A DNA stretch of 63,994 bases, the filler included, from Dirinaria sp. TL-2023a (Eukaryota), in assembly GCA_051941275.1 (NCBI GenBank). It is 3 parts of 3 records of this genome, joined end to end, with 100 filler letters (N's around TTAATTAATTAA, not from the genome) between each part and the next. Parts side by side here need not be neighbours in the genome. Positions count along the whole stretch, not along the records: positions 22,370 to 44,621 come from JAVEBF010000230.1; 2 more parts are not named here. The stretch is one strand, 5' to 3'. Below the pieces are notes generated by a model, which was not told the origin of the DNA, made no database searches, and was given only the letters and a program-made list of their open reading frames with translations. The position numbers were made by a program, and so were the translations under genes. Below are positions 27,574-43,787 of the stretch, in pieces (position 1 is the first letter of the stretch; each line of letters begins with the position of its first letter).

Positions 27574-30206
27574 CTTTACAGCTTGTGAGTGAGTGCTCAG
27601 GAGGAAGAATATAGTTGTAGAATCGACGAGTGCTATGCAAGGAGATGTTCCAGACTACAGCCAGGAATGCAATTACCGCATTCGTCAAGCGAGAGGAGCT
27701 TCATAGCCGAATGCGGAGGAGCTACTAATCAGTCATAGCTGTCGCCTCTCTCGATTGCATAATTCGTCTTCTGGTGGCTTCCAGAAGCTATGCATTACCT
27801 ATCCTCGTATTCTTATGCCCTTGCTCTTGTTGTCGAAATGGCTGCATAGTCTCATTTCAGCTTTCACTGAGTACTCTTTCTTGCTTATCCAACCTACTTA
27901 CTCTTTTCTTTGTTAAATTGCTCACAAGACCCTGGAAACCTCTTCATTGATCCAGCTCTCGCCCCTAGCTCATATGGGTGTTCTAGCAATTCCCGTGGTC
28001 CACAATGACCCTTGGAGCGTCGCTGGCCATTGTCCAAGAAAATTTTGTCCAATTCATCACCAGAACGGAACTACTCTCGCCTCTGATCTGGCCACCAAAT
28101 CAGCAATGAACTTCATGTGAAAACCATAAGATGTACTATCTTCTGCTGAACTATGATGTTGTCCATACTGCTGGTATTTTAATAACATACTATAAAACCA
28201 CACCATGCCGTCAACGACAAGAGACTCAGACGGCCAGAGGACTTTCTATGCGCATTCAGCTCCTCACTCTCTCTCACCTCCTCACTCTCTCTATGGGCAT
28301 ATCCTGTTAAAGGAACAGATCCTCATTCACTCCTCTTTTCTTCTATCATGCTTATGCATATACTGTTCAACAGACATAGAATCTGTGGACAATGATATGA
28401 CGCCGTTTCATTCAATCATAATAGGGGAAGGAAAGGGTGAGTGTCCGACACCATTGACGGCATTTTTGGAGATCCATAACAACAGCAGCAAATTTAAGAA
28501 GCACTGGTTAATGCTCATCATATATGATACTGAGAGATTTGGAAACAGGCTCTGCACCCACGGTCTATGTTAAGAACGCGGGATGTAGGAAGTACTGAAC
28601 ATCACGCGTAAGCTTACCTGCCTAGCTCCAGAGCACATGTCGGAAATTGTGTTGTTTTTGGTTCGATGCTTTAATGTCCAGCTCACAAGATCTTCATATA
28701 GATTGATGCAATCTCATACAACTGCGTGACTGATACATTCGATCAGCTGAGGTTGCGAATTAGCAAACTGTACACACACATATTAGGAGAATTCAATGTG
28801 CTCGGGTTCGTAGAAATCTGATCAAGTGCCGTAGTCGTCGGCGCGAGATTCCAATTTGTAATGAAACTCCAGACGACATTCTTGCGTTAGGCTGTTGATA
28901 ACGAGTTTATACCATGAGACGCCAACGTCAGCAGCGATATCTAGACTGATGTCTAAAGTAGTGAGTACAGTGGTAAGTTGGAGCCTTGCATCTGTACAGG
29001 TAGTCTCGTTCTGCGTAGAATTAAAGCTCCCAAATAGTCGTACCCTTTTATCAAGAAACGGGATAAGAGCCGAGAATGCCGAAGAAAAAACAGCAAATCA
29101 CAACGCAAAAATCAACGTCTGTCTGAATCGATGAGCTGTTGTTAGATATCGCAGACGAGACTTGACTTATTCATACGAAGTATCCACGATAGAGTAGATA
29201 TCTTCACTCATGACCCGAAAGTTCACGTCGCCAAGTTAATTTCCTGCAAGAGCGCTGTATACCCATTTTTTTTTGAAACCGGACAAGATGAAAAAGAATG
29301 AGCAAGAGATACACACCGCATGCCAAACGATATACCAGCATCGAAAAACAGTAGCATAAAAGTTTTTCCCACGAACATATCGTGATAAAGATGACGACAA
29401 AGATGCTTATTCACGACAGTAAACAGTCGCAGATTGAAGATCTTTAATTCTTTCTGAAAGCGTCGACAGGCGAATCAAGCTGCTCTGAAATTTTCTTCGG
29501 CTCACATGGAGATCACATCCGCTGCAATTTCCGTTTGGAAGAAGGCAACGCATTCCCTTTGATAATGTCGACGTCATACATGTCTTGTTATCGAGTAACA
29601 ATTGGATATCAAGCGTCGAAAAATCATCAGTGCGAGCAAAGATATACTGCGTAGGATATATCACATCTTTCGATCTCAATGAGCACTGTCAGATCGAGCC
29701 GCCAGATGGCCAGGAAGAATAACAAACGATGGGAACTTCCTCACAATGTAAGGTACCTAGGTATGATATGTACAGGCCCTGAATCAGCCCTAGACGAGTC
29801 AAGAAAAAAAAAAATGAGTTGACTTGGGAGTTCTTTTTTTGGTCTTACATGAAAGGTAAGCATGTCGATTGAATGAAAACCTCGCTGCGTCGTATCTCTA
29901 TTGGATCTCTCACAAGCCATGTAATGTGTACAACGTTCGTGGGTTGCGATGCAGAAAATCAATATCGAGCTGCATCCAAAAGTTGAAGAGTGAAGCCTCC
30001 AGATCTTCTCGGCCTATTCGCATCGACTTGATCAGACAGTCACAGCGAACAGGCGAAGAGTACTGCAGTCTATCTATTTCTCTATAGCCCTATTTGCGAC
30101 ACTACTTAAGAACGTTTCCGCCTGCTTGCCCTTTTTATGCATCCTGATACTGGCTGTGGCGTAGCCTGACCCAGCATTGTTCTCCCGTGGCGTCTTCCTG
30201 ATACAG

Positions 30207-31660
30207 TCACCCTCTCCATCCCTTATCCACCTCCGCAAAAGCATCATACCCCATCAACCAATCCCTGAAGCCCGGCTCAGTGAAATGGTACGGATAGTCA
30301 TCATCTCCGAGCGTGGCGAGCCACTCATCTCGCTCCTGCTGCTCCTTGCCGTCAGGAAATTTGCGTGCCACCCCCTGGTTCAAACTCCCCTCGACGACTT
30401 TCGTGACCCTTGGTTTGCGTAGGTCCTCGTACGCCTGCAGCAGCTTTGGGATCTGGGCGCGGGCTGTTATCTTGTCGAAGAGGGCTCCGAGTACCGCGCC
30501 GTCTTCGACTGCCATGGCCGCGCCTTGGGCCCTTGCGATTCCGTTACAGACGATTCATACCAGCCACAATCAAGATAAAACAAAATGGAGAATCACTTAC
30601 AGATAAGGTAGGCTTGCGTGCGCGGCGTCCCCAAGGAGTACGAACTTCCCACCCTTGTGTCCCCAGTTCCCCATTTCGCGGCTGGTCAGCATACGCCACT
30701 TCTGCGTCTGCTGCACCACACCCAACAGCGCCTGCAGTCTCGGGTCCCACCCTTTCAACAGTTCTTTCATCTCCTCAGGCGTCGCCTTGCTAACATCGAC
30801 ATCTTCCGGTATGGTATCTGGGGCCACAAGCACGATGTTGTACAGCCCGTCCTCTTGCAGTAGATAGCCAACGACAAAGATATCCGGCCCGATCCAAAGA
30901 TCGTTCGACATGTGCTCGATAAGCTCGTGTAGGATTTCGTACCTACGCATATCGCTCACTTTGACTGTAAGCCTGTATGCTAGATCCCCCGTGCGACGTG
31001 GAGGATCTTTCCTCCCTAGCAAAAGCTCCCGGCACACACTGTTCAGCCCATCAGCGCCCACAATCACGTCGCTCTGGATCCTCTCCCCATCTGTCGACGC
31101 GGCATTCGCTTTCAAAATTACAGTTCCGGATTCAAATTCTATCGCCTCCACAGCACAACCTAGTCTAATCGTGACACCTAGCCTGGTTGCCTCTTCCGCG
31201 AGAACGGCGTGGAAGTCTGCGCGGTGGATGTAGTATATATCGGTCCCATATTTATCTGCAATCCTATCAGATGAGGTACTGAGGATACGACCATCTTCCC
31301 AGCGGCGGACCCGGAGCTCGTAAGAATGGACACTCTGGGGTTCGATTGCAGGGAGCAGAGACCAGTGTTGAAGGATACGAGCGGCGTTAGGGGGTATTTG
31401 GATTCCTGCGCCGACCTGGATTGGGTGACGAAGGTTGTAAGAATGTTCAATGTGGTAGAATGAGGCAACAGGGCAATGAGTGATAGAATATTGAGACGAA
31501 TCTAACTTGGATAAGGGTAAGAGGTCCTTACATGGTGGAATTCAGACGATTGCTCGAGCATTGTAACGTTGTGCCCTGCACGTCTGATGCCAACAGCTGC
31601 CGTCAAGCCTCCGAGGCCGGCACCGACGATAGTGAATTGGAGAATTGGCTTTTGAGCCAT
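30207..31660 (-). CDS. FAD-dependent monooxygenase (salicylate hydroxylase-like, group A), 2 introns
   Basis: IVGAGLGGLTAA (Rossmann), VGAGIQIPPNA, IHRADFH, VIVGADGLNS (DG motif), LLGDAAHASLPYL|AQGAAMAVEDG (GD motif), YEDLRKPR. Confidence 0.9.
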
Positions 31661-32391
31661 TCGATTGAGAGTAAGGAGAAAAGCTGGGGAGAGACTAAGG
31701 TGAATGAGACTCGAACGAAGCAAACCGTGATACGCTGGTGCTTTAAGTACTTGATTTGAACCAGCGCAGAGTATTTTTTGTGAAAATCAGCTGGGGATGC
31801 GTAGATCCGTTCGAGAAGGCTCGATGGATACAGCTCCTTCCCTACCTACATAATGACTTACCATAACGTTGATCACAGAGTTTCGCGAAGTTCATCGGCC
31901 ACCGAGGCAGGACCCTGCAAGATGATGGCACGCCGCATCCATGCAGCAACATCCTCCACCATGGTATAGGTAAGGTAAGACAATCTAGACTTGCCTCTCC
32001 ATTCGCCAGAGACAGCACAGATTCACTGAACGACCGTCCATGCGTTCGAGTATGTAACTGCGAGGCTGCGTAATGATTTAACAGAATGTTGCGACGGTAG
32101 GTTGGGCGTCTCAGATATAAATCACAATGCTTGAATCAGAAAGTTCTAAAGGCACAATCAATCATATGCACAAGACAGCCTTGTCAATGAGTTGGACAAT
32201 TAAGCATGTACCTGCATTAACCGTCCTCTGGCGCCCCGCTGTGTCGAATAAAAATAACCATTGAGCGCACACCGTCCCAGTGGAGACGCGTTGTAAAACC
32301 TTGATAGATCATCGAACATATCACGTTTAAGTCATTGCGCCCTCAGCCCTCCTGTACTTTCTAAAACAATCGCGCTTAAGCGCAGTCGAGA

Positions 32392-34328
32392 CTAAAAGGT
32401 TTCTCCTACTCCACTCAACTTCCTCACCAGCTTTCGCTCTGGCGGGCCCATGTCTCTGTCGTCTCTTCCTTTTGTGCTTGTACCGAAGCTTATTCTTCGA
32501 TCAGGTCCTAAGCCACTCATCCGCCTCTGTATGCTACTCACAGAGAACGCCGGTATACTAGAATTCTGTTCTCCTTTTCTACTCGCTGGTGTTGGTGTAG
32601 TAGCTTCGCTACTCTCTTCTTCGCCATTGTGAAGATGGTATGAGCCATGATTGCTTAGGCGGGTGACGCTTGCTGAATGACTGTGTGCACCATGCATCGG
32701 TGCGTACGAGCCTCCTATGGAAGAGCTTGGCCTGCGTGATTCCGACATCATGCTTGTCGAATAGTGACCGAGCGGTGTTCGGCTGCCGGTCATCGATTGC
32801 CGACTTGCAGGCCGGCTGCTGCTGTTGGAAGCTGCGGCAGCACTCGGGAGATGGCTAATGGAGGTCCGCGAGGTGATGCTGTGCCGTGAGCTAGGTCGGC
32901 TTCGAACAGTGTTTATGTCGCGGTTTGGTGAAGGCTGAGGTATGCCGAAAGAAAGCCGGCTTTGCAGCCGACTCTGTGAGCGTTGCGGCTGTTCTGCTGG
33001 CTGTTGCAAAGCTGACGAGGCGTTACTACCGCCGGTACGCTTCTTGTTACTGCGCATCGTGATGGTGGGAGGAATGTAGGCTTGGCCAAGGGCGGAATTG
33101 CTTCGAGGCGAAGCCTTGGGAGGGGTCGCAGTAGGAGCTGGAAGTTTTGACCTTGCGGAATTGACTCGCTGCTCAAGCTTTTGCATCTTCCCAATCAAGC
33201 CGCGGATTTGATGGAGCGAACCAGTGGTGGGAAGACCTGGACGCGGAGGGCCTGGCTCCACCTGAGGGCGATTTTGTCGGTAGATGGTTGATCGTCGAGA
33301 TGCGCTGGTGGGTATATGATTGCTTTTAGAGATGGATAAACGAGATCCAGGAGGGCGAGCAGAAATGTTCGAAGGCCGCGGCGTAATATTCGAGTCCGCC
33401 ATCGTAGGCCGCGTATTTGATGTCGTTTTGTCGTCTAATGCTGGAGCTGTAGGTACAGATTGCTCAGAGATAGGCGGCGAAGGTGGTGTGGGTGTTTCGG
33501 ATACGGTGGAAGAGGCCGACTTTGTAGGCGGCGTCGCGATGGTAGGAGACGAAGTCGAGGTAGTCTCTGAATGCTGCGATACTTGAGATGAAGGTCGATC
33601 CAGACTTGAAGAAGCTTGTGCAGGCTTTCTTGAGCGTTGCCTTTCTGCGGCCGCCTCTACATTGCGAAGTTTATCTTGCCGAACTTCTGCCTCCACTTTG
33701 AGATCACTGAGTTCGTCCCGCAAACGTTGTGTCTCTATCCGTAGCGCTTCTCTTTCTTGTTCCCCGCCCTTGATCTCCTCCTCCATCATGACCCCTCGCT
33801 CGATTGCTACATTGTATCTGGACTCTAGATCCTCGAGTGACGACGTAGTGTTCCTGGCCTGCCTCTCAAAGTCATCACTGACCACCTCAATGTCTCGAAG
33901 CTTGAGTGTGATCGTTCTATTAGTATCGCGAAGGGAAGTAATCTCTTTCTGGAGGGCATTTTGTGCGGCGTTGGCTTCGGATTTTGACTGTTTGTACTTC
34001 GTCTAGATGTAGAAATGTTAACCTTTTGGCTCACTGCCTTGAGCCAAAATTGCGCAGAAGAGTATGTACGCGGGGGAGGGGCATCGTATACCTTCCACTC
34101 TTCAACTTCATATCCTAGGCTTTCCACCTTCTCTTGCAGCTGGCGTTCTCTCTTTTCGGACGCTTCGATATCTCTCTCCAGCTCCGCCTCCAGCTCCCTG
34201 CTCGAGGCCTGGAAATCGGCAAGTTCTGCTTCGAGCTGCTCGTATTGCGCCTTGTAATATGATAGCGAATTTTCGCCCTCGGACAATGTATTGGTGGAGG
34301 ATGAAGGCGACTCATCTTGGGGGTCCAT
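32392..34328 (-). CDS. nudE: Nuclear distribution protein NudE/RO11 (1 intron)
   Basis: [93 protein letters not shown]. Confidence 0.93.
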
Positions 34329-35011
34329 ATTGAGGGTGCTGTCTTGGGATACCTGCTAGCCAGACAAGGGGAGTACAGTAGTAGATGATGTTCACTGGGC
34401 GTGCTGCTGGGTCATTGGGCCTTGATGCATCGAACTGTGATCGTGCAGTCGTAGAGGTTTCCTCCGGACCATGGGCGACCTACTAGAGGTAGAGTGCCAC
34501 AATTTAGGACTTTTGGCTATCTTCACTGTTCTGTCGCGCTCTCGTCCCGATGCCCGAGAGAAGAAAGAGGGTTTGAGGTCGAGAAGTCAAGGTACCTGAA
34601 TCTTCCCCTTACCTAACTTTCTCGACCGGTCGCAATATTTGTTGATGCCCCAGACTCCCACTGTCCGAGTGAACAACGGGGACAACATACGCTAGCCTCT
34701 TCGGTCTAGCGCCATCTGCCCTCTTTAGCGGGCATCACCCCGTCCCTGCCAGTCCACTTCACCCATGAGACTCCATCAAGCAAAGGAACCGCTCTCTACT
34801 CCCTCTGTGTGTTTCGAGACAACTTGTGCGATTGGGATTGCTGATTCGTCATGCGCGGTAGCCTACCGTCAGCAATGCGACACCTGCGCGACTATTATTG
34901 AGCATCTCGAGCAACCAGAGCTTGCGTCAAACCATGACCAACAGATCTCAAACTACACCCCAGATCTAGGACTACACCCTTGACCACTACCTCAGCCTTA
35001 TTTCGAGAATC

Positions 35012-36206
35012 ATGATGGCAGCTTCCTCCGTCTACAACGGGCCTATCAGTGTTATCCCTAACAATCCTGGCTCATCCGAACCCCCAGCTCAAGATGGTCC
35101 CTCTACGGAATTCCCTGCAGAACCTCCTCGGGTTGGTATGTCTTTCGACTCAATGCCATCCGCGAAGAAATACATCACCGAGTGGTGCGCTAGAGAACGG
35201 ATACCATATAGTGTTTGGAAAGCGGACAGACGATGCTGGGTCTTAACGTGCAAGGACAAGAACAATTGCATGTTCAGGCTGCGAGTCAAGAATATCGATC
35301 GACCGACCATCAGTATTCTCGAAGCCCACACTTGCTCGTCCCTGTCCTTCCGACGAACAGCACAAACTGGAGGACCCATAAAAGCGACCCCGTACAATTG
35401 GCCACATGATGCATCATTGAACTCGGGCACTACGGCTTTGGTGTTGATAGATATGCAGCGCGACTGTGCGTATTGATTCCAGGTCTATCTAGCAAACTGA
35501 GATGCTAATGAAGGCTCGAAGATAGTCTGCGCGCCAGGTGGCTTCACTGAACGTCAGGGCGATGACGTATCGCAATTACGAAAAATAATACCAGGGCTTC
35601 AACGATTACTGTACGCTTTCAGAGGCGCAGGGTTTCCAGTCTATCATACAAGAGAGGGTATGCGGCATCTATAGGCTTGTAAGCTACCACTGAACAGAGC
35701 CAGGTCATCGTCCCGATTTGTCTACTCTTGGCAGCCGCGAAGCTTTTCGTTCGCAAAACAACACTTCAGGCCTTGGAATAGGTTATCCCGGGCCTTTGGG
35801 CAGATTTATGATACGAGGCGAGGAAGGACACGACATCATACCCGAGCTGTATCCCGTACCTGGCGAACCTATCGTAGACAAGCCTGGCCGGAGTGCGTTC
35901 GCGCATACTGATTTCGCACTGCTGCTAAAGAACAAGGGCATTCAGAATCTTGTCGTGGCTGGCTTTTCAACAGATACTAGCGTCAACAGCACAATCAGAG
36001 AAGCAACAGATCGAGGGTTCGACTGTCTGCTTGTTGAGGACGGGAGCGTAGCTAAGGATGCAAGACTGCATAAAGCAGCCTGTGAGAGCATCGCTTTAGG
36101 AGGAGGAACATTTGGCGCGACTGGAAAGCTGCATCATGTAGCTGGACAGCTGGAATTCATGGCACACGATCGGCGGAACGGTGTTGAGAGCGGCATAGTT
36201 GGATAA
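35012..36206 (+). CDS. Fusion: MuDR/Mutator-type DNA-binding domain plus biuret-hydrolase-like isochorismatase domain with Ser in place of the catalytic Cys (about 362 aa, 2 introns)
   Basis: Exons 35012-35465, 35526-35657, 35704-36206. N-terminal PRVGMSFDS..AKKYITEW..YSVWKADRRCWVLTCKDKNNCMFRLRV..ISILEAHTC, then ATPYNWPHD..TALVLIDMQRDF..HTREGHRPDLS..IVDKPGRSAF..AGFSTDTSVNSTIREATDRGF. Confidence 0.85.
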
Positions 36207-36519
36207 GATACGAAAACATCACGAAGGCAAGATAGGCAGAAGCTCGATTAGGAATTCTTGAGTGAACAGGGCTCGATTACCAGCAGGGCGTCGGAGGATA
36301 GTATTGCTTTCCCGGACGGACTTTTCTTGTTCAACGATACCCTATCCGTTGGCAGACAAAATCGATCGACGTATTTCATGCAACGGGCGCTAATGGCTCA
36401 TGGAAGTAACGAAGTCGAATCCACAAGGGTTCAGAGACCTGGCTTGCAAGTTACTGGCGTTTGTCGATTGTCGCGACCAAAAGCACTAGTTCACGTGATT
36501 AAGTCTGAGGGAAGGAGTC

Positions 36520-36625
36520 AGTGGAGATAAGGCCGCCTCGGGCGAGATGCTAGCGGTATCTCATCCATTGACCAATCTTTTATGCAGGTGGAGATAAAGC
36601 CTCGGTCCAATATGTCATAGATAAA
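36520..36625 (+). promoter_or_regulatory. Three clustered AGATAA (GATA/AreA-type) sites upstream of the permease
   Basis: AGATAA at 36525, 36592 and 36619, 150-250 bp before the ATG at 36774. Confidence 0.5.
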
Positions 36626-36773
36626 GAGTTTGACCCCAAGACGTGCCGCTCCTCCTTCAGCATAACGGTGAAAAGGAGCAATGGAGAAATGCAAAACACA
36701 ACTTACCTGCAAGCTGTGATTGACATCTACCATAGCTCCTGTGTTAATTAGCTTCTCATAAGTCAGGTACACT

Positions 36774-38481
36774 ATGGCTACCAAGGACGAGGTCTTCGAT
36801 TCTGAGCTCAAAGAAGATGCCGTGCTCGAAAGCTTGGGCTACAAGCAGGAGCTCAAGCGATCCTTTGGCCTATTGGGCATGCTAGGCTTCAGCTTCAGCA
36901 TCGTAACAAGTTGGAGCGCCCTCGGAGGAGTCTTGATTGTTGGCGTTCTATCTGGAGGGCCGCCCGTCATGATATGGTCCTGGATTGGTATCAGCATATT
37001 CTCCCTTGCTGTCGCGTACTCCATGGCGGAAATTTGCTCGTGTTATCCTTTGGCCGGTGGACAATACTCATGGGTTGCGATACTCGCACCTCCAAGTGTC
37101 GCAAGAGGCCTAAGTTGGATTACAGGGTGGTTCATGATCGTCGGTATGGGCTATCTTGGGTCTCCTGACCGTTGAATGCTAAATCATATTCCATTCTGCC
37201 AGGAATTCTTGCCATGGGTGCGACGAATAACTTCATTGGAGCCAACTTCATCCTGGGGCAGGCTAACCTATCTTTTCCTGCGTACACTATTGAGCGCTGG
37301 CACACTGTCCTTGTGGCGTATTTGATCGCTTTCATCAGTACAGCCATCAATATCTACGGACCGCATCTATTGGACAAAATTTCTCGTGCTGCGATTTCCT
37401 GGAACATTCTCTCTTTCGTTGTCATCATTATAGTCCTGTTGGCTTGTAATGATCACAAACAATCCGCACATTTCGTATTCAAAGATTTCCAGAATTTTAC
37501 TGGCTTTGGCACGGCGTATGCCGCCATCCTTGGACTTTTGCAAAGCTCCTTCGGCATGTGTTGCTACGATGCCCCCGCCCATATGTGTGAAGACATGAAG
37601 AAACCGTCAACACAGGCGCCAAAGGCGATTGTCTGGTCGGTGTACATTGGTGCCGTGACTGGCTTCATTTTCCTTATTACTGCTACTTTCTGTATTGGCG
37701 ATATCGCGGCTACAGCAGAATCGTCAACAGGTGTCCCTCTCATCGAGATTTTCTACAACTCCACAGGTTCTGTTGCGGGGACCTGTGTTTTGTCCTCGAT
37801 GATAGTCGTTATAGACATTATCTGCGCCAACGCTCTACTCGCAGAAGGATCGAGAAGCCTGTATGCCTTTGCGCGCGACCACGGTCTGCCGTTTTCTGGG
37901 CTCTTTGCGAAGGTGGACCCGAAGCGACAAGTGCCAGTCTTTGCCATACTTCTGACTTGTCTTGTTCAAATTGCCTTGAACTCCATCTACTTTGGGACAT
38001 TGACAGGCTTCGACACCGTCATTTCAATTGCTACTGAAGGCTTCTGTATGCAGTTCAGTCCATACTTTGATTTATTTCCGGACTAACGTGGTTGTCAGAT
38101 CTTTCTTACGCAATGCTTTTGCTGGTCCGAATCATGGCATACTTCTCCGGACGAATGCGTGTGATCCCAGGCCCGTACACGCTAGGGCGCTATAGCGTCT
38201 GGCTTAACATTCTAGGCCTTTTGTTTTTGGTTTTCACCTCCATCACCTTTAACTTCCCCACAGTCAACCCAGTCGATCGAGAGAACATGAATTACACCAG
38301 TGCTGCCATTGGTGTGATCGCGTTGATAAGTATCGTGACCTGGGTAACCACAGGCAGAAAGCATTATTCTGGGCCGCAAGTTGCAGCCATAGATGCAGCT
38401 CCGGGCCAGCCGCAGGCCATGCACGGTCAGGAGCACTGGCATCTAAGTGATGATTATCATGATGGCCAGTCGAAGCAGTAG
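36774..38481 (+). CDS. APC superfamily amino acid/choline/GABA-type (ACT family) permease, 2 introns
   Basis: LESLGYKQELKRSFG, GGPPVMIWSW, SMAEICSCYPLAGGQYSWV, YDAPAHMCED, SRSLYAFARDHGLPFS, ENMNYTS. Confidence 0.9.
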
Positions 38482-40101
38482 CCGCAAAGCTACCTTGAAA
38501 AGCTTACACTAGTACTTTGGCGCAATAAACCGCGCTTGCTTTTCGCTGGAGTGGTCCAATCAACAAGCTACAATCTAGCCAATTGTTGGAAACCATTGGA
38601 TCATTCCCACTGCTATCGTGGCCCCAGAAGTGATCCAGCCGGCGCTCATTTGGCGCAGCGAGGGCAGAATATCCAAGCCTGACTGCTGATCTACATCCGT
38701 ACCTTGTTCAAATTGGGTCGATACTTGCGCAGCATCAAATATATATATAGCACGCTTTATACTGACTAATCTTTGCCCATGCCTCAATGGTCTGGGAAAT
38801 AAAATCAAGCCAAATCACACTCGTTCCACAGGGTACAGATCTGCAGGGGCTTACAGCTGCTGAAAGTCTTCCTGCACACCGTAGTCGTTCAACAAGAAGT
38901 CGAAACTTCACAACTAAGTGCTCACCTTCGCGTCAATGAACACTTTGCATTACATTAGTCTTTACATCTATCTGTTTAGGAATATACATCTCGAACGTGT
39001 GTGCGAATTCTCGATCCCGATTGCTGTTAGCACGCATCATCATTTTCAGCTTTATGTCAAGCCTCGCACGTATTCAAACAATCCACATCTCCATAGGTAG
39101 TATTCCAATCCAGTTGCCAATTTTCTCAAAATAGTGCTCCAGCTATTGCACGTCTTGATAGTCTGCCTAGGTTTGCAAACATGAAGTATTAATTCCGTCT
39201 CGACTACTATCTCGTAGTTCGTGCTGTGCTAGGCAATCTATCTTCTCTGTAGTGACAGGAGTCGGTTCCACGATCACGGGTGCTATGCGATTGAATGTAC
39301 CAGTATCGCATACCGCCTATCTGCTTACTAATTACCTTACGAAGAATCGATTCCAAAGTCGATTCTACTCAAGTACGAGTAAAGTATGAATGAGCTCTTC
39401 GTACGGGAACTAAATTTTGATTCCATCTTAGGAATTGAGTTTGCGCTTCCATTTCCTTAATTTTGGAAAACGATCCCACGATTCCCACCACAGTGTTAAC
39501 TTTTTCCCACTAGCTCTTCCATCCTTCTATGGAGATCATTTGCACCGCATGTCATCATTTTTCCGGACCATTAAGTATTAAATGAGCTTTATAATTGACA
39601 AAAACTTTTCTATATCTTGAGAACCGATATTTATTCATGGATGTTAGTCACTGTTGAAGTCATGTTTATTGAATTTCCACCGTTGGTGTTGGCGTCCGCC
39701 ATTGCCACTTGCAAGTCGTTCAAATTTGTAGGTAAAAACGGACCACTTCGAAGATGCGTACGAGGCATATCTTTGGGCGCCCTCGATGGCGGTATGGAGA
39801 AGTTCGGTCCATGATTGCACTCGTGAACGCTAAACTGTGATGGTAAATTCTACGAGGTAAAGTACCTTATCTCAAGCTTCGGTGCTAGAGTGCTGCTAAC
39901 GCAATTCAACAGTAGCCGAAAGCCTACTCGAGTCAACGCCCAGAATGCTGCATGAGCTAGACGTCGTACTGAGAATGTCGAGTCCCATCTCTCAGGTATA
40001 TTTAAGCTATCCAAGGCCTCTATTGATGTATTGTGAAATCCTAATCTCCTCTGATCTTCCTCCAACATAGATAGCCTTGACTCAATTTCTAAAATAGGGT
40101 A

Positions 40102-43100
40102 ATGATGATGGAGCAGCAACTCAAGCTCATTTGGTCTCAAGTATTAGATCGCCCGCCGTCCGACGTACATGATGATTCCAACTTCTTCAAGTCTGGGGGC
40201 GATTCGGTGATGGTAATCAAATTGGTTGGATTGGCAAATGAATCGAACATCAAGCTGGATGCGCAAACCGTATTCGAGAATCCTGTCTTTCGCGAGCTCG
40301 TGAAGAGGTGTCGAACATTTTCGGACGTCAAGCCTGAAGCTACCAGCCTCCAAAAGAGCATCAGCTTGATGAAATCATCCAAAATTCTCAATACAGGCCT
40401 TGTTCAATGTTGTGTGCCCCCAAACATGGTTGAGGATATAATACCTTGTTCACCATCACAGCAGGGTATGATGGAAGCCTCTCATGAATACGGCGCTTGG
40501 CTTGTGATCGGTGCTGTTGAGCTGCGAAAGGAAAACGAAGAGCGAGTTCGGGAAGCCTTCGAGGTCTTGCGGCAAAAGAACCCGATCTTCAGGACTAGAA
40601 TTATACAGCACGGAGTTGATCTATATCAGGTGATTCTCAAGGATAAGATCGAATGGCATGAGGAGCATACGGACCTGAGATCCTACATCTCCAGGGATTT
40701 GGCTCGTCGCATCTGTTACGGGGATGCATTGTGCAGGTATGCCATCGTTCGCGATGGGGCCAAATCATTTCTCGTGTTGACGCAGGTATGTATGCGTGTA
40801 AAAACCCCTCTAAGGTTAAAATCGTGTCCTTTTCCCTCTCTGATAAGCATTGTGTTTAGTCGCACGCCGCCCAGGATCGATGGACGCAGATGCTCTTCCA
40901 TCATGATCTCAGAGAATACGTTCGCGATCCGGCCGCTTTCCTCCAAAAACCAGACCGACCACCGTACAGCAAGTTCATCTCCTACATTTCTCCACTGGAA
41001 GCCGAAGGCGTGGCCTTCTGGCGCACAAAACTCCGAGGTCTTCGTCGTTATGATCTTTTTTTCAAGCCCGCGTCCCAGCCTATGCTCTTCCAGAGCAGGT
41101 CGACAATGAAGAAGGTCATAAGATACAACAAACCTCTAAACACGTCCATCACGTATTCAACCATCGTACATGTCGCGTGGGCATTGATGGTTGCCAATTT
41201 TGCACAGCACGATGACATCTTCTATTGCTCATCCCGAAGTTGTCGCCAGATGGCCATGCCAGGCGTTGAATCCGTCATGGGGCCTCTGTTGGCTGGAGTC
41301 CCTGTCCGGATACACCTGCACGGAAAGCAGTGCCTGTCGGAACTGCTACTCGAAACCCAAAATGACGATGTAAAGGCAGCGCGCTATGAGACTTTTGGTT
41401 TACAAGCAATGCTCGAACATTTCAAGCACAAAAAATTTCCACAGTGTGCCATTATACCTGAGTCTTTCCCTCGACACTCGTTCAATGAGGCTGTGTATCC
41501 CGGTGAGGCCGATGCAGAGAAGGACTGGCTAGGAAGTCCATACAGAGGCTTGAATGGCCAATACGGAATGTTTGTGGTGATGACCCTTGACGGCGATCTT
41601 CTGGACGTAGCCTCGTGTTGGGACCCTAGCTATATCGACTTTAAGCCAGTAGAGTTGTTGCTTGACCAATTTGGGGAGATGCTTGGCCGCGTCTTGAGCA
41701 GCTGTGAGTAGCGAAAAAAGGCGAACAAAGACCGTGCTTACAAGGCAAGTAGTGTCACGGAAAGAAGCCAGGATCGATGAATTCTGCCCCCATCTGAAAT
41801 TGTCCTCTTCGGCCAACATTCGAAGTTTCGAAGACGGAGATGCCAAAACGACACCTAGATCTTCTAATCCACCGCGATTCCCAGAGGAGATGGCTGGGAG
41901 AGGCACTTTGTCTAATGTTTTCGCCTCGAAAGTGCGCGGTTCCCAGGCAGTTATAATACCAACGCAACCCAATAGATCATTCACTTACGAACAATTGCAC
42001 GAACACGTTGCAAGCTTCCAGCAGGACTTGAGAGGTGAGTCAGAGCTCATCTTCCGCTACGACGGACCGTTCAAACAAACCAAAAAAAAAGAAAGGAAAA
42101 AAAAAAAAAAAAATTGGCAACTGCATACAATTTCATATCACATAGACAAAGAAAACATGCTGATGAGTCGCAGCACTGGGGATATCAAAGGGTTCCGTCG
42201 TCTCGTTAGCACTACGAAATTCGTATGAATTTGTTGTTGCGTTCCTCGCGACAACATGGCAACGAGCAGTCGCTGCGCCGCTGAACCCCGACTACAAGCA
42301 GCAAGAGTTCGAGTTCTACTTCCAAGATGCAGCTACTTCCCTGGTGTTGGTTCCTAGGGAATCTCTTCAACAAGACAGTGCTGCAGTAAGAGCGGGTAAA
42401 GAGCGTGGCGCGACCATTGCTGAGTGTTTCTGGGACGGTCAAAAAGTTGTCCTTGATGTGCAGCAGGAAAAACCGTCTTTCGCACTAGAAGAAAATGGGA
42501 TTGCCGTGAATGCGGAGAAAAACGATGTTGCGCTATTGCTGCACACAAGTGGCACCACAGGCAAACCTAAAGCAGTATGATACAGAATAGCGCCGCTACA
42601 CTAGCGGTACCAGATGCTGAAAAATAAACAGGTACCTCTAACTCACGGAAACTTGACCAGATCCATGGGTGAGTGCTTCTCTGTTTCCGTTGCTTGCGAG
42701 CCCTTTGATCTGATAAAATATAGAAAATATTTGTGCCACCTACGCTCTCGGGCCTGCAGATCGTACAATGCTGATCATGCCGCTGTTCCATGTCCACGGC
42801 CTGCTCGCCTCATTTTTAGCACCTCTTTGCTCCGGCGGCGCAATCATACTGCCAACCCGCCTCGATCCTTTGTTCTGGCAGCACATCGTCAAACATAACG
42901 CGACCTGGTACACCGCCACACCGACAATGCATCGGCTGATTCTCCAGTTCCCACCTCCGGATGCACTTCCGGAGATCCGCTTCATCCGTTCGTGTTCGTC
43001 CCAACTACCTCCGTCCCTGTTCAACGCACTTGAAAAAAAGTTCAGAGCACCGGTATTGGAGTCCTACGCAATGACCGAGGCGAGTCATTTAGTCACCTCG

Positions 43101-43787
43101 AACCTGCTTCCCCCTGGAAAAAGGCTGGCAGGGTGCGTCGGCCGTGCAGCGCCGGGTGTAGAACTCAGGATCCTTGACGACAACGACAACCCCGTACCGC
43201 AAGGCACCGAAGGCGAGGTGTGTATCCGGGGGGAGAACGTGATGAAGGGGTACCTCGACAACCCGTCCGCCAACGCGTCTTCGTTCACTAGACAGACGAA
43301 CTACTTCCGCACCGGCGATCAGGGCAAGTTGGACCACGACGGCTATCTAACGCTCACCGGTCGCATCAAGGAGCTGATCAACAAGGGTGGTGAAAAAATC
43401 TCGCCGGTCGAGCTGGATAATACCATCGGTCAACATGAATCGGTCGAGGAGGTCGTGACGTTCGCCATCGACGATGAGATGTACGGGCAGGATGTAGGTT
43501 GCGCAATCAAGACGAAGAAAGGCGACGCTCGATTGGGAAAGCTGGAATTGAAGGACTGGCTCAGGGAGAGAATTGCAGCGCATAAAATACCGAAAGAGGT
43601 GAGTGAGAAGGAAACTTTGCGCTTTGAACCTTTGATGATGAAAATGGTTCCCTCCCTTCTTTTCTTTTGCTAACGTGATCGCTAGATATGGTTCGTAGAC
43701 GCGATTCCGAAGACGGCGACAGGCAAAGTCCAGCGCAAGGTCGTTGCAGAAGCGATGGTGAAATCAACCATCAATTCTCGGCTTTAG
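40102..43787 (+). CDS. NRPS-like protein with T-C-(oxalate-CoA-ligase-like A) order and C-terminal PTS1 SRL (about 1074 aa if spliced as one gene)
   Basis: Exons 40102-40785, 40860-41703, 41753-42034, 42174-42574, 42632-42668, 42724-43598, 43686-43787 give one open frame. T: NFFKSGGDSV. C: EDIIPCSPSQQGM, IFRTRI, SHAAQDRW, GPLLAGVPVR. Ligase: APLNPDYK..EFEFY, HTSGTTGKPK, PLFHVHG, RFIRSCSS, YAMTEASH, FRTGD, PKTATGKVQR..SRL*. Confidence 0.78.

What the first reader, a model, noticed from the sequence alone, without database searches (positions are those of the whole stretch)
35012..36206. Mutator-transposase DNA-binding domain fused to a Cys-to-Ser biuret-hydrolase-like domain: candidate ligand-sensing regulator
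Seen: 35123-35335 encodes VGMSFDS..AKKYI..YSVWKADRR..LTC-x5-CMFRLRV..HTC, in the same exon and frame as the hydrolase start, with no Met between the domains. There is no DDE domain and no visible terminal inverted repeats. The hydrolase keeps Asp (IDMQRD) and Lys (DKPG), but the nucleophile motif is GFSTDTSV (AGC at 35979-35981) where family members typically read GxTTDVCV. Established: this C-x-C..H-x-C pattern is the MuDR/WRKY-GCM1-type domain; Mutator-derived transcription factors exist (FAR1/FHY3, Aft1/Rcs1); isochorismatase-fold hydrolases such as BiuH use an Asp-Lys-Cys triad. Inference: a domesticated transposase DBD plus a dead or altered enzyme pocket could act as a one-component sensor for biuret/guanylurea-like nitrogen compounds, an unusual design in fungi.
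Basis: partly seen in the sequence, partly recalled or inferred. Interest (0 to 1): 0.87.

Follow-up and report, generated by a model that had tools for sequence, protein, structure and literature searches.

The report
Transposon zinc finger on dead hydrolase
A lichen fungus expresses a conserved gene that joins a DNA-binding zinc finger taken from a Mutator transposon to a biuret-hydrolase-like enzyme domain that has lost its catalytic cysteine, so it is probably a gene regulator built from an ex-enzyme, a design whose sister form in moulds was predicted in 2006 but never tested.

Summary
One exon (35012-35465) encodes both a C-x5-C...H-x-C zinc finger and the start of an isochorismatase-fold domain, and the nucleophile codon is AGC (Ser) at 35979-35981. 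Spliced RNA contigs from a lichen metatranscriptome carry both domains on one mRNA.

- **N-domain:** a divergent HxC-type MULE/WRKY-GCM1 DNA-binding domain. Pfam DBD_Tnp_Mut scores 19 bits, below the 25-bit cut-off, but its relatives pass it, and the best fold match is yeast Aft2 bound to DNA.
- **C-domain:** BiuH-like (E 9e-67 to PDB 6AZN) but dead. Across lichen-fungus orthologues the nucleophile is S, A or G. Seven of the nine columns that diverge from 94 Cys-bearing fungal relatives are named BiuH pocket or tunnel residues.
- **Selection:** both domains are constrained (dN 0.04 and 0.09, with synonymous sites saturated).

The architecture is not new. Babu et al. 2006 described WRKY-GCM1 plus isochorismatase fusions and proposed a sensor role. 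Those proteins (Eurotiomycetes) carry the other, FAR1-type finger and mostly keep the Cys.

In my sample the Cys is lost only in finger-fused proteins: 15 of 51 fused against 0 of 64 unfused.

Verdict: a new variant of a known but untested kind. A biuret ligand is not supported.

The parts
34707..34730 (+). Conserved upstream block TAGCGCCATCTGCCCTCTTTAGCG (two TAGCG words); candidate cis-element, function unknown
   Evidence: It aligns with L001/L003 although synonymous sites are saturated. The pattern is unique in the window, with 0 of 100 shuffles matching.
34953..34979 (+). Two copies of CTACACCC, 19 nt start to start, 33-59 nt before the ATG, at the 5' end of the RNA contig. The core ACACCC equals the PuCACCC Aft-type site. 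Candidate (auto)regulatory element.
   Evidence: Only 3 matches occur in 64 kb, two of them here. All four orthologous loci have exactly two matches each, at the same place and with the same 19-nt spacing. PuCACCC/CACCC as the Aft-type site comes from passages of PMC3633901.
35012..35465 (+). Exon 1. Holds the Pro/Ser-rich N-tail (aa 1-39), the zinc-finger DBD (aa 40-116), a linker, and the first 29 residues of the hydrolase domain including Asp147. It ends in the first base of a split Phe codon.
   Evidence: Open frame. The splice joint 35465/35526 is seen in RNA contigs of 2 of 3 RNA runs.
35129..35359 (+). HxC-type MULE/WRKY-GCM1 zinc-finger DNA-binding domain. Ligands are C80, C86, H106 and C108; the conserved strand reads YSVWKADRRCW.
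   Evidence: Pfam DBD_Tnp_Mut E 9e-4. Relatives pass the Pfam cut-off. AF2 model pLDDT 83, one helix plus four strands. The top fold match is 4lmg, Aft2-DNA, in both Foldseek and VIA. dN is 0.043-0.049.
35466..35525 (+). Intron 1 (60 nt, GT..AG)
   Evidence: Skipped in RNA contigs of runs X1 and X3. The same position is used in L001-L004.
35526..35657 (+). Exon 2 (hydrolase domain, aa 152-196)
   Evidence: RNA contigs. BiuH model match.
35658..35703 (+). Intron 2 (46 nt, GT..AG)
   Evidence: Skipped in RNA contigs of X1, X2 and X3.
35704..36206 (+). Exon 3. Holds the rest of the BiuH-like domain: Lys255 35880-35882, Arg258, Ser288 (AGC 35979-35981) at the nucleophile position, and Gly328 (36099-36101) at the BiuH Gln215 position. 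A C-tail and stop TAA 36204-36206 follow.
   Evidence: The spliced CDS is 1089 nt and 362 aa, and differs from P0005 at 3 of 361 positions.
36207..36537 (+). 3' UTR, at least this far
   Evidence: RNA contig record 1 of X1 runs from 34952 to 36537.
36521..36630 (+). Three GATAA sites before the permease gene, two of them inside a repeated GTGGAGATAA(G/A)GCC. They resemble GATA-factor (nitrogen-control) sites; that reading is recalled knowledge.
   Evidence: L001 has two GATAAG sites at the equivalent place.
36774..38086 (+). Downstream neighbour, an amino-acid/APC-family permease (AA_permease_2). The gene runs on beyond 38086. It is context, not shown to be part of the system.
   Evidence: Pfam. 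The order NUDE(-)/fusion(+)/permease(+) is the same in L001-L003.

Best explanation
The gene (35012-36206, 3 exons, 362 aa) encodes a domesticated Mutator-transposase DNA-binding finger (HxC-type WRKY-GCM1 fold). A flexible linker of about 10 residues joins it to a BiuH-like isochorismatase-fold domain that no longer hydrolyses anything.

I read the protein as a sequence-specific DNA-binding regulator of a lichen-forming fungus (Caliciales). The ex-enzyme domain dimerises, so at least two fingers are presented to DNA. Its remodelled, enlarged pocket probably binds a small amide- or ureide-type nitrogen compound without turning it over, coupling metabolite level to transcription in one polypeptide.

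**Shown here**
- The fusion, its expression and its splicing.
- Conservation of both domains.
- The zinc ligands.
- Loss of the nucleophile.
- Divergence focused on the active site.

**Inferred**
- DNA binding, from fold and homology.
- Dimerisation, from BiuH and a structure prediction.
- Ligand binding, the ligand's identity and the target genes.

The conserved CTACACCC pair in front of its own gene is the only candidate target.
For: **Fusion and expression**
- A single exon holds both domains.
- A spliced 1485-nt RNA contig covers 34952-36537 with both introns removed.

**DNA-binding domain**
- C-x5-C-x19-H-x-C is invariant in 6 of 6 orthologues.
- C, C and F are invariant, and H and C at least 90% conserved, in a 23-row alignment with distant relatives.
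- 16 of 22 non-spurious phmmer relatives pass the Pfam cut-off for DBD_Tnp_Mut, and one also carries a MULE domain.
- The AF2 model has pLDDT 83.2 and pTM 0.71.
- The best solved match in two independent searches is Aft2 bound to DNA. Foldseek gives E 8.8e-3, probability 1.0 and TM 0.55.
- VIA gives Z 7.0, rmsd 2.7 A over 71 residues, with the next row at 5.3.

**Dead enzyme**
- The nucleophile column reads S, S, A, S, G, S in six full-length orthologues.
- It reads G in L001-L004 and S in four exon-3-only gene models.
- In BiuH the Cys175Ser variant is inactive yet binds substrate (PMC5806882, abstract and passages).

**Active-site-focused change**
- 58 of the 74 columns at least 95% conserved in 94 Cys-bearing fungal homologues are unchanged in all six lichen proteins.
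- Nine columns are at least 90% conserved there but changed here: BiuH positions 47, 118, 170, 171, 174, 175, 184, 215 and 218.
- Seven of these are named pocket or tunnel residues in the BiuH paper.
- Positions 171, 175 and 215 hold only small residues (S/A/G). This suggests the cavity is kept open rather than lost.

**Constraint**
- dN against L001/L003 is 0.043-0.049 for the DBD and 0.09 for the hydrolase domain, against 0.26-0.27 for the N-tail.
- 218 of 259 synonymous sites differ.
- L001 against L003 gives dN/dS 0.10.

**Catalysis is dispensable only when a finger is attached**
- On a 120-row tree the nucleophile is non-Cys in 6 of 6 HxC-fused and 9 of 45 FAR1-fused proteins.
- It is non-Cys in 0 of 64 unfused/other and 0 of 5 algal proteins.
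- At least 5 changes are needed on the tree, all on fused branches.
- Fused branches sum to 11.8 of 31.4 units of summed branch length.
- My arithmetic for all five falling there by chance is 0.376^5, about 0.008.

**Dimer**
- Complex prediction of two copies of aa 122-345 scored 0.68, with the best of 3 controls at 0.00.
- That mark was reached by 20 of 30 proteins solved as pairs of one chain and 1 of 23 solved as single chains.
- On eukaryotes it was reached by 17 of 29 and 0 of 30.
- The runs agree in at least 98% of contacts, and the partner's pLDDT is at least 94.
- A like complex (BiuH) is solved, so the pass may be from memory.
- The interface includes 256-258 and 326-332. These stretches include the equivalents of BiuH Lys145, Gln215 and Val218.

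**Candidate site**
- The CTACACCC pair with conserved 19-nt spacing.
Against: - No DNA-binding, localisation or ligand data exist.
- The window's own finger scores below the Pfam cut-off (19.3 against 25 bits).
- The fold scores are middling. The tool's own note says Z under 8 may mean only a common arrangement.
- I saw no obvious basic nuclear localisation signal by eye.
- The pocket is not more conserved than the rest of the domain. My tally from the table is that 5 of the 12 tabulated active-site positions are invariant in the six orthologues. That compares with 113 of 215 columns overall, so a conserved ligand site is not demonstrated.
- The adjacent permease promoter has no RCACCC in the window, so no link to the neighbour is shown.
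- The association between fusion and Cys loss rests on two or three fused clades, so it is phylogenetically clustered. It comes from the best 120 of 7995 hits plus 11 added rows.
- 12 fragmentary or mis-spliced rows were dropped before the tree. Four of them (P0076, P0078, P0080, P0082) are Cys-less models that start at exon 3. Their N-termini are unknown.
Confidence: 0.45

Rival explanations
1. Scaffold-only regulator. The finger binds DNA, but the dead hydrolase domain serves only as a dimer/tetramer platform (and perhaps a partner-binding surface). No small molecule is sensed.
For: - The predicted dimer scored 0.68, with the best of 3 controls at 0.00.
- That mark was reached by 20 of 30 proteins solved as pairs of one chain and 1 of 23 solved as single chains; on eukaryotes by 17 of 29 and 0 of 30.
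- The runs agree in at least 98% of contacts and the partner's pLDDT is at least 94. The pass may be from memory of BiuH.
- BiuH is described as a dimer whose neighbouring subunit supplies Gln215 to the active site (passages).
- Nucleophile-side pocket residues vary among orthologues: S/A/G at 171, 175 and 215, and F/I/V/M at 170.
- The pocket is no better conserved than the domain average.
- One Cys-less FAR1-fused protein, P0160, has also lost Asp36 (N) and Lys142 (H).
Against: - Asp146, Phe151, Lys254, Arg257 and Asp285 (P0005 numbering) stay invariant in all six lichen orthologues and in L001-L004.
- The changed positions hold only small residues, never bulky or charged ones. This looks like selection for an open cavity rather than free drift.
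- 36 of 45 FAR1-fused relatives keep a complete triad, which suggests the pocket matters in this architecture.
Confidence: 0.3
2. The protein is still an enzyme, or a chromatin- or nucleic-acid-tethered enzyme. The domain would use Ser or another residue, or act on a different substrate. The finger would target it to nucleic acid or have a non-DNA role.
For: - Asp and Lys of the triad are kept.
- In BiuH Cys175Ser the Ser hydroxyl sits under 3 A from the substrate carbon, 'poised to attack' (passage).
- Most FAR1-fused relatives keep Cys and could be bifunctional.
Against: - The position is Ala in P0008 and Gly in P0010 and L001-L004, so no nucleophile is conserved in the clade.
- BiuH Cys175Ser is inactive (abstract).
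- The Thr171 equivalent also varies. In BiuH, Thr171 contacts biuret through its side chain and contributes a main-chain NH to the oxyanion hole.
Confidence: 0.08
3. Decaying transposon relic or gene-model artefact with no function.
For: - The finger derives from a MULE transposase.
- The enzyme has lost its nucleophile.
- The NCBI gene model P0004 is mis-spliced at 317 aa, skipping exon 2.
Against: - Both domains lie in one exon.
- Spliced transcripts exist.
- There are no stops or frameshifts in the window, in the full-length orthologues, or in the three exon pieces translated from L001-L004.
- dN is low while synonymous sites are saturated.
- The same three-gene neighbourhood is seen in L001-L003, not a repeat family. 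There are no TIRs and no other copy in the window.
Confidence: 0.02

Closest known systems
WRKY-GCM1 plus isochorismatase fusion proteins of filamentous fungi (Babu, Iyer, Balaji, Aravind 2006, NAR 34:6505, PMC1702500). Seen here as about 390-aa proteins of Aspergillus, Penicillium, Talaromyces, Coccidioides, Trichophyton and others.
   Same: - N-terminal MULE-derived WRKY-GCM1 finger plus a C-terminal BiuH-like isochorismatase domain.
- The hydrolase domains are close relatives. Identity is 56-70% for the FAR1-fused rows, and both fused groups fall in one clade with SH-aLRT 89.
- The same sensor hypothesis was proposed in the paper (section 15 read).
- Some members have also lost the Cys: 9 of 45.
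   Different: - Their finger is the insert-containing, HxH, FAR1-type family (Pfam FAR1, E about 1e-5).
- The window's finger is the short-spacer HxC family (DBD_Tnp_Mut). The two N-domains show no BLASTP similarity (E 7.7).
- This implies either an independent fusion or a finger swap; the tree leaves it unresolved.
- 36 of 45 of theirs keep the full Asp-Lys-Cys triad. All lichen-clade members lack the Cys and also changed the 171/215 pocket positions.
Biuret hydrolase BiuH of Rhizobium leguminosarum (PDB 6AZO; C175S variants 6AZN/6AZQ; PMC5806882) and TrtA/BiuH of Herbaspirillum (6XJ4, 6XJM)
   Same: - Same fold and subfamily: E 9e-67, aligned over residues 122-335.
- Asp36, Phe41 and Lys142 equivalents are kept.
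- The dimer interface is predicted to be the same kind.
- The natural protein mimics the engineered inactive C175S variant that was used to trap substrate.
   Different: - No Cys nucleophile.
- Lys145 is Arg, Thr171 is S/A/G, Gln215 is G/S, Tyr47 is F/L and Val218 is T/A/L.
- It scores 245 bits against the 370-bit equivalog cut-off.
- It carries an N-terminal DNA-binding domain.
- The fungal Cys-bearing relatives also differ from BiuH, with Arg/Lys at 145 and Glu at 215, so the family's substrate is unknown.
MULE-derived transcription factors Aft1/Aft2/Rcs1 (yeast) and FAR1/FHY3 (plants)
   Same: - A transposase DNA-binding finger kept as a host regulator without the transposase.
- Aft2-DNA (4LMG) is the best structural match.
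- The conserved upstream ACACCC pair equals the PuCACCC Aft-type site.
   Different: - They belong to a different finger subfamily (insert-containing).
- No Pfam AFT or FAR1 hit was found for the window's protein at E up to 1.
- Those factors sense through other domains or partners, not through a fused ex-enzyme. The FAR1/FHY3 details are recalled, not checked here.
Catalytically inactive enzyme paralogues used as metabolite sensors in fungal gene control, such as Gal3 (galactokinase-like) and NmrA (dehydrogenase-like). Recalled from general knowledge, not checked here.
   Same: An enzyme fold is retained for binding, not turnover, and feeds into transcription.
   Different: Those act on a separate transcription factor. 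Here the sensor candidate and the DNA-binding domain are one polypeptide, like a bacterial one-component system.

Membership tests
Pfam DBD_Tnp_Mut (PF03108) / HxC family of WRKY-GCM1 fingers | Profile score at or above the curated cut-off (25 bits) | tested here: not met
   - The window's N-domain scores 18.4-19.3 bits, E 9e-4 to 1.7e-3. P0005 scores 16.5.
- A more divergent member of the same fused family, P0016, scores 32.6 bits.
- 16 of 22 non-spurious phmmer relatives pass the cut-off.
Pfam DBD_Tnp_Mut (PF03108) / HxC family of WRKY-GCM1 fingers | [quoted passage not shown] | tested here: met
   C80-x5-C86-x19-H106-x-C108. It is invariant in 6 of 6 orthologues and conserved in the 23-row alignment.
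Pfam DBD_Tnp_Mut (PF03108) / HxC family of WRKY-GCM1 fingers | WRKY-GCM1 fold: four-stranded sheet, with an N-terminal helix in the MULE versions | tested here: met
   - The AF2 model has helix 18-32 plus four strands, pLDDT 83.
- The top hit is Aft2-DNA 4lmg in Foldseek (probability 1.0, E 8.8e-3) and in VIA (Z 7.0 against 5.3 for the next row).
- WRKY and FLYWCH domains appear lower in the Foldseek list.
- The scores are moderate.
Active MULE/Mutator transposon | MULE (DDE) transposase domain | tested here: not met
   No MULE/PF10551 hit in the protein. The finger is followed by a hydrolase domain instead.
Active MULE/Mutator transposon | Long terminal inverted repeats and multiple copies | tested here: not met
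   - No flanking inverted repeats in 32000-39500; the best pairs are 14-28 nt at 70-88% complementarity.
- Single copy in the window.
- Syntenic position in L001-L003.
- The whole genome is not held.
Isochorismatase superfamily (PF00857) | Profile score at or above the cut-off (27 bits) | tested here: met
   134.2 bits for P0005. 95.6 bits for exon 3 alone.
Isochorismatase-family cysteine hydrolases | Asp-Lys-Cys catalytic triad | tested here: not met
   Asp147 and Lys255 are present, but the Cys position is Ser288 (AGC 35979-35981). It is S/A/G in orthologues.
Biuret amidohydrolase BiuH (NCBIfam NF050097, equivalog) | Score at or above 370 bits | tested here: not met
   245.3 bits for P0005. 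Cys-bearing fungal relatives also fall short, at 283-292 bits.
Biuret amidohydrolase BiuH (NCBIfam NF050097, equivalog) | Biuret-contacting side chains Asp36, Lys145, Thr171, Cys175 and Gln215 (PMC5806882 passages) | tested here: not met
   D kept; K145 is R; T171 is S (A/G in orthologues); C175 is S (A/G); Q215 is G (S).
WRKY-GCM1 plus isochorismatase fusion of Babu et al. 2006 | Architecture: finger N-terminal to an isochorismatase domain in one protein | tested here: met
WRKY-GCM1 plus isochorismatase fusion of Babu et al. 2006 | Finger of the insert-containing (FAR1/Aft-type, HxH) family | tested here: not met
   - The window has the HxC type.
- It shows no similarity to the P0046 N-domain (BLASTP E 7.7).
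- No FAR1 or AFT Pfam hit at E up to 1.
- The paper places its fusion in the insert-containing family (section 15). Its Figure 3 itself could not be seen.
Sequence-specific transcription factor | Binds DNA, is nuclear and changes transcription | not testable with these tools
   There is only fold or homology evidence and a conserved candidate site.

The most novel reading that the evidence does not exclude
Lichen-forming Caliciales carry a lineage-specific, transposon-derived one-component regulator.

- **Origin:** a second, independent capture of a Mutator finger (HxC type) by the same BiuH-like hydrolase gene that captured a FAR1-type finger in Eurotiomycetes.
- **Consequence:** once a finger is attached, the hydrolase is repeatedly released from catalysis, with at least 5 separate nucleophile losses and none seen in unfused relatives. 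It becomes a ligand-binding pseudoenzyme.
- **What the family would show:** the enzyme-to-sensor transition at several stages. Bifunctional Cys-bearing proteins occur in most moulds and dead sensors in Onygenales, Monascus and lichens.
- **Lichen protein:** it would bind PuCACCC-like sites, including a pair before its own gene, in response to a nitrogen-rich amide or ureide.
Probability: 0.3. Interest if true: 0.75.

Novelty: new variant of a known kind. Interest (0 to 1): 0.55.

Why it matters
Eukaryotic one-polypeptide "metabolite sensor plus DNA-binding domain" regulators built from enzymes are rare. None of the finger-isochorismatase proteins has been tested: four literature searches found only the 2006 prediction.

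This locus adds three things:
- A second finger type on the same enzyme family, meaning either convergence or a domain swap.
- A clade in which the enzyme is unambiguously dead yet strongly constrained.
- A pattern across 120 relatives in which the nucleophile is lost only where a finger is attached. That is comparative evidence that the fused proteins work through binding, not catalysis.

It gives a concrete, cheap experimental entry: a recombinant 77-aa finger, a candidate CTACACCC site, and a ligand panel on a natural "C175S-like" trap. The questions it opens are how transposon domestication and pseudoenzyme evolution create new regulators, and how lichen fungi control nitrogen-compound use.

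If the protein proves to be a plain scaffold or does not bind DNA, it remains a well-documented pseudoenzyme fusion of modest interest.

Tried and rejected
- **Whole genome.** It is not held, so a Cys-bearing paralogue in the same genome could not be sought. None lies in the 64-kb window. No other Dirinaria or Heterodermia protein is among the best 120 of 7995 hits.
- **dN/dS against L001/L003.** It could not be computed because synonymous sites are saturated. Only dN per domain and the close pair L001/L003 are given.
- **Link to the neighbouring permease.**
  - Synteny is shown only in a close relative of about 82% amino-acid identity.
  - The hint from P0142 is weak. That Chaetothyriales gene model joins a permease to an unfused hydrolase, but the permeases are only 34% identical.
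  - No RCACCC lies in the window's permease promoter.
  - One RNA contig runs from the fusion gene into the permease, but a contig across two genes shows no single transcript.
- **A third finger type.** The N-terminus of P0111 looks by eye like C-x2-C...H-x4-C. Pfam gave no zinc-finger family for it, only a chance-level Ntox16 hit at E 0.024, so no claim is made.
- **SprB-repeat hits.** P0017, P0022, P0026 and P0037 in the phmmer search are treated as spurious matches to Cys-rich repeats.
- **Foldseek E-values.** All are above 1e-3. The fold assignment rests on rank, probability and agreement with VIA.
- **Earlier findings of this scan.** Three look-ups returned nothing.
- **Independent fusion versus finger swap.** The tree is a polytomy of the lichen clade, the FAR1 clade and three short unfused models, P0043, P0056 and P0124. 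The question is left open. Those three begin with a '(K/A)GQI.A.PY' stretch like the FAR1-fused linker and may be truncated models.
Full report
**1. Observation**

- The frame from the ATG at 35012 is open to 35465. It reads a Pro/Ser-rich tail, then VGMSFDSMPSAKKYITEWCARERIPYSVWKADRRCWVLTCKDKNNCMFRLRVKNIDRPTISILEAHTCSS. After a short linker it reads IKATPYNWPHDASLNSGTTALVLIDMQRD, the start of an isochorismatase-type domain.
- The four putative zinc ligands are C80, C86, H106 and C108 (35249-35251, 35267-35269, 35327-35329, 35333-35335).
- The nucleophile position is AGC at 35979-35981.
- In the HMMER alignment to the solved biuret hydrolase it falls exactly on Cys175 of BiuH.

**2. Gene model and expression**

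- Contigs from RNA libraries of one lichen metatranscriptome sample (X1-X3, 90-99% alike) lie on the locus with two clean GT..AG joints. These remove 35466-35525 (60 nt; seen in X1 and X3) and 35658-35703 (46 nt; seen in X1, X2 and X3).
- One 1485-nt contig spans 34952-36537, so finger and hydrolase sit on one spliced mRNA.
- The model is exon 1 35012-35465, exon 2 35526-35657 and exon 3 35704-36206. It gives 362 aa and differs at 3 of 361 positions from P0005, the protein predicted from that RNA contig.
- The NCBI model of the identical gene (P0004, Dirinaria sp. TL-2023a, 317 aa) skips exon 2.
- The organism is thus a lichen-forming fungus of Caliciales.

**3. The N-terminal domain**

- Pfam gives only a sub-threshold DBD_Tnp_Mut match: 19.3 bits, E 9e-4, cut-off 25.
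- A phmmer search of the 77-residue domain against 1.84 billion representatives gave 27 hits at E up to 1e-3.
  - Four are bacterial SprB-repeat proteins, which I treat as spurious.
  - One is P0011.
  - Of the other 22, 19 list DBD_Tnp_Mut at E up to 0.01 and 16 pass its cut-off.
  - One of them (P0031) also carries a MULE transposase domain.
- In a 23-row alignment the two Cys and a Phe are invariant, and the His and last Cys are at least 90% conserved.
- AlphaFold2 on that alignment gives a confident model: pLDDT 83.2, pTM 0.71, one helix followed by four strands, with a disordered linker after it.
- Two independent structure searches put yeast Aft2 bound to DNA (4LMG) first.
  - Foldseek: E 8.8e-3, probability 1.0, TM 0.55.
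  - VIA-align over 48,161 chains: Z 7.0, rmsd 2.7 A over 71 residues, next row 5.3.
  - Plant WRKY and FLYWCH domains appear further down the Foldseek list.
- These scores are moderate. Together with the ligand pattern (short C-x5-C spacer, HxC) they place the domain in the HxC family of MULE-derived WRKY-GCM1 fingers, as defined by Babu et al. 2006 (passage).
- There is no transposase domain, no terminal inverted repeat and no second copy in the window.

**4. The C-terminal domain**

- It is a full isochorismatase fold (PF00857, 134 bits). Its closest solved relatives are BiuH of Rhizobium leguminosarum (6AZN/6AZO, E 9e-67 to 5e-66, residues 122-335), BiuH of Herbaspirillum and the triuret hydrolase chains.
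- It does not reach the NCBIfam BiuH equivalog cut-off (245 against 370 bits). Neither do Cys-bearing fungal relatives at 283-292 bits. The family is BiuH-like, with substrate unknown.
- The table maps the residues the BiuH paper names (abstract and passages) onto the window's protein.

| BiuH residue | Window protein |
|---|---|
| Asp36 | Asp147 |
| Phe41 | Phe152 |
| Lys142 | Lys255 |
| Tyr47 | Phe |
| Lys145 | Arg |
| Thr171 | Ser |
| Val174 | Thr |
| Cys175 | Ser |
| Gln215 | Gly |

- In BiuH the Cys175Ser variant is inactive and was used to trap biuret. Lys145Arg is effectively inactive, and Gln215Ala raises KM more than 25-fold.

**5. Orthologues and the fate of the active site**

- Eight protein clusters carry the same finger fused to the same domain. 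Two are named: Dirinaria and Heterodermia, both Caliciales.
- Four metagenome loci carry an orthologue of about 82% identity, with the same three exons.
- The nucleophile column varies.
  - S, S, A, S, G, S in the six full-length proteins.
  - G in L001-L004.
  - S in four gene models that start only at exon 3.
- A catalytic Ser would not be replaceable by Ala or Gly, so the enzyme is dead in this clade.
- I compared the six proteins with 94 Cys-bearing fungal homologues over 215 columns.
  - 58 of the 74 columns that are at least 95% conserved in the Cys group are unchanged in all six.
  - Only nine columns are at least 90% conserved there and replaced here: BiuH positions 47, 118, 170, 171, 174, 175, 184, 215 and 218.
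  - Seven of the nine are named substrate-pocket or tunnel residues in the BiuH paper.
- The divergence is therefore aimed at the active site. At positions 171, 175 and 215 it runs only to small residues.

**6. Selection**

Against L001/L003, 218 of 259 synonymous sites differ, so dS is saturated and no ratio can be computed. Per-domain dN is shown below.

| Region | dN |
|---|---|
| N-tail | 0.26-0.27 |
| Finger | 0.043-0.049 |
| Hydrolase domain | 0.09 |
| C-tail | 0.17 |

The close pair L001/L003 gives dN/dS 0.10 on few changes. Both domains are under purifying selection, the finger most strongly.

**7. The wider family**

- A search with the hydrolase part returned 7995 hits, of which the best 120 were listed.
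- Many are proteins of about 390 aa from Eurotiomycetes with an N-terminal FAR1-type finger: a long insert between the Cys, HxH, and Pfam FAR1 at E about 1e-5.
- A search with that finger found 74 clusters, nearly all fused to the hydrolase, and one MULE transposase.
- This is the architecture that Babu et al. 2006 reported. [quoted passage not shown]
- The window's finger belongs to the other (HxC) family and shows no similarity to the FAR1-type finger (BLASTP E 7.7).
- On a hydrolase-domain tree, several groups form one clade (SH-aLRT 89) whose internal order is unresolved. The tree has 109 rows, LG+G4, quick search, and 12 fragmentary rows were dropped.
  - The lichen clade, with support 100 and a long stem of 0.39.
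  - The FAR1-fused clade, with support 87.
  - Three short unfused models.
- So the lichen fusion is either a second, independent capture of a Mutator finger or a finger swap.

**8. Nucleophile loss tracks fusion**

- On a 120-row tree the nucleophile column is C 105, A 6, S 5, G 4.
- The table gives the non-Cys counts by group.

| Group | Non-Cys rows |
|---|---|
| HxC-fused | 6 of 6 |
| FAR1-fused (Coccidioides, Ophidiomyces, Trichophyton x2, Myotisia, Monascus and three unnamed) | 9 of 45 |
| Unfused or other | 0 of 64 |
| Algal | 0 of 5 |

- The tree needs at least 5 changes, all on fused branches. Those branches hold 11.8 of 31.4 units of summed branch length.
- By my arithmetic the chance of that is about 0.008.
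- The caveats are real. The fused proteins form two or three clades, and the sample is the best-scoring fraction of the family. Some 'unfused' models may be truncated.

**9. Context**

- Upstream on the minus strand lies a NUDE homologue. Downstream on the plus strand lies an APC-family amino-acid permease. The order is the same in L001-L003.
- Before the fusion gene, two CTACACCC words 19 nt apart lie 33-59 nt ahead of the ATG.
  - The window has only three such words in 64 kb.
  - Each orthologous locus has exactly two, at the same place and spacing, amid otherwise poorly alignable sequence.
  - Their core, ACACCC, equals the PuCACCC/CACCC site of Aft-type factors (passages of PMC3633901).
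- This is a lead for autoregulation, not evidence. The finger subfamily differs from Aft's, and the words may lie in the 5' UTR.
- The permease promoter has three GATAA sites but no RCACCC.

**10. Mechanism**

Most likely (0.45), the protein is a DNA-binding regulator whose ex-enzyme domain dimerises and binds, without hydrolysing, a small nitrogen-rich amide or ureide.

- Dimerisation has two supports. In BiuH the neighbouring subunit reaches into the pocket. The homodimer prediction also supports it.
  - Score 0.68 against a best control of 0.00.
  - The mark was reached by 20 of 30 solved one-chain pairs and 1 of 23 single chains; on eukaryotes by 17 of 29 and 0 of 30.
  - Runs agree in at least 98% of contacts, with pLDDT at least 94.
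  - The pass may be from memory, since BiuH complexes are solved.
- The main rival (0.30) is that the domain is only an oligomerisation scaffold. The pocket is not better conserved than the rest of the domain, so I cannot separate the two readings.
- A residual enzyme (0.08) and a functionless relic (0.02) are unlikely.
- Biuret itself is an unlikely ligand, since four of its five side-chain contacts are changed.

**11. Novelty**

- The kind, a transposon finger fused to an isochorismatase and read as a candidate sensor-regulator, has been in print since 2006.
- Four full-text searches found no experimental follow-up. Subscription journals are not covered by that library.
- New here:
  - the HxC-type version;
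  - its restriction, so far, to lichen fungi;
  - the clade-wide dead nucleophile with active-site-focused remodelling under purifying selection;
  - the pattern that the nucleophile is lost only in finger-fused lineages.
- I rate it a new variant of a known kind, with interest 0.55.

Noticed in passing
P0030 (595 aa; not in the window): Another enzyme fused to the same HxC-type Mutator finger: DBD_Tnp_Mut (37 bits) plus Ala_racemase_N plus D-ser_dehydrat. It is a D-serine-dehydratase-like enzyme. This suggests that the pairing of a MULE finger with a metabolic enzyme is a recurring fungal theme.
   Followed up: partly
P0111 (363 aa, Dothideomycetes sp. NU457): A Cys-bearing member of the same hydrolase family with a different N-terminal extension. 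By eye it reads C-x2-C...H-x4-C and is rich in Lys/Arg, so it may be a third kind of zinc finger. Pfam found no zinc-finger family for it.
   Followed up: partly
P0038-P0041, P0044 (451-473 aa green-algal proteins, including Botryococcus and Micractinium): Tandem duplication of two complete BiuH-type domains in one protein: 678 bits on the BiuH model in 2 stretches. They have the bacterial-type Lys145 and Gln215 residues and Cys. These are the only eukaryotic rows seen that look like true biuret hydrolases.
   Followed up: partly
window 36521-36534, 36588-36601 and 36620: A repeated GTGGAGATAA(G/A)GCC and a third GATAA lie in the promoter of the APC permease gene. L001 has CGAGATAAGAG and CAGATAAGAG at the equivalent place. 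They look like GATA-factor sites of nitrogen control; that reading is recalled knowledge.
   Followed up: partly
window 35143-36900, RNA run X3 record 8: A 3628-nt RNA contig runs without a break from the fusion gene, through the 570-nt spacer, into the permease gene. This may be read-through, overlapping UTRs or an assembly join. A contig cannot tell which.
   Followed up: no
window 40093-43673 (+): Pieces of an NRPS-like gene (PP-binding, Condensation, AMP-binding, AMP-binding_C) lie about 2 kb beyond the last checked part of the permease (38086). A CFEM-domain ORF (27080-27700, -) and an FAD monooxygenase-like ORF (30597-31541, -) lie upstream.
   Followed up: no
P0004 (NCBI model of this gene) and P0006, P0012-P0016, P0076-P0082: Public gene models of this family are often wrong. 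P0004 skips exon 2, P0006 and P0012-P0016 read into intron 1, and four models start at exon 3. This hides the fusion from domain-architecture surveys.
   Followed up: yes
window, whole: The window holds 176 N. I did not locate them. None lies in 34400-36800.
   Followed up: no
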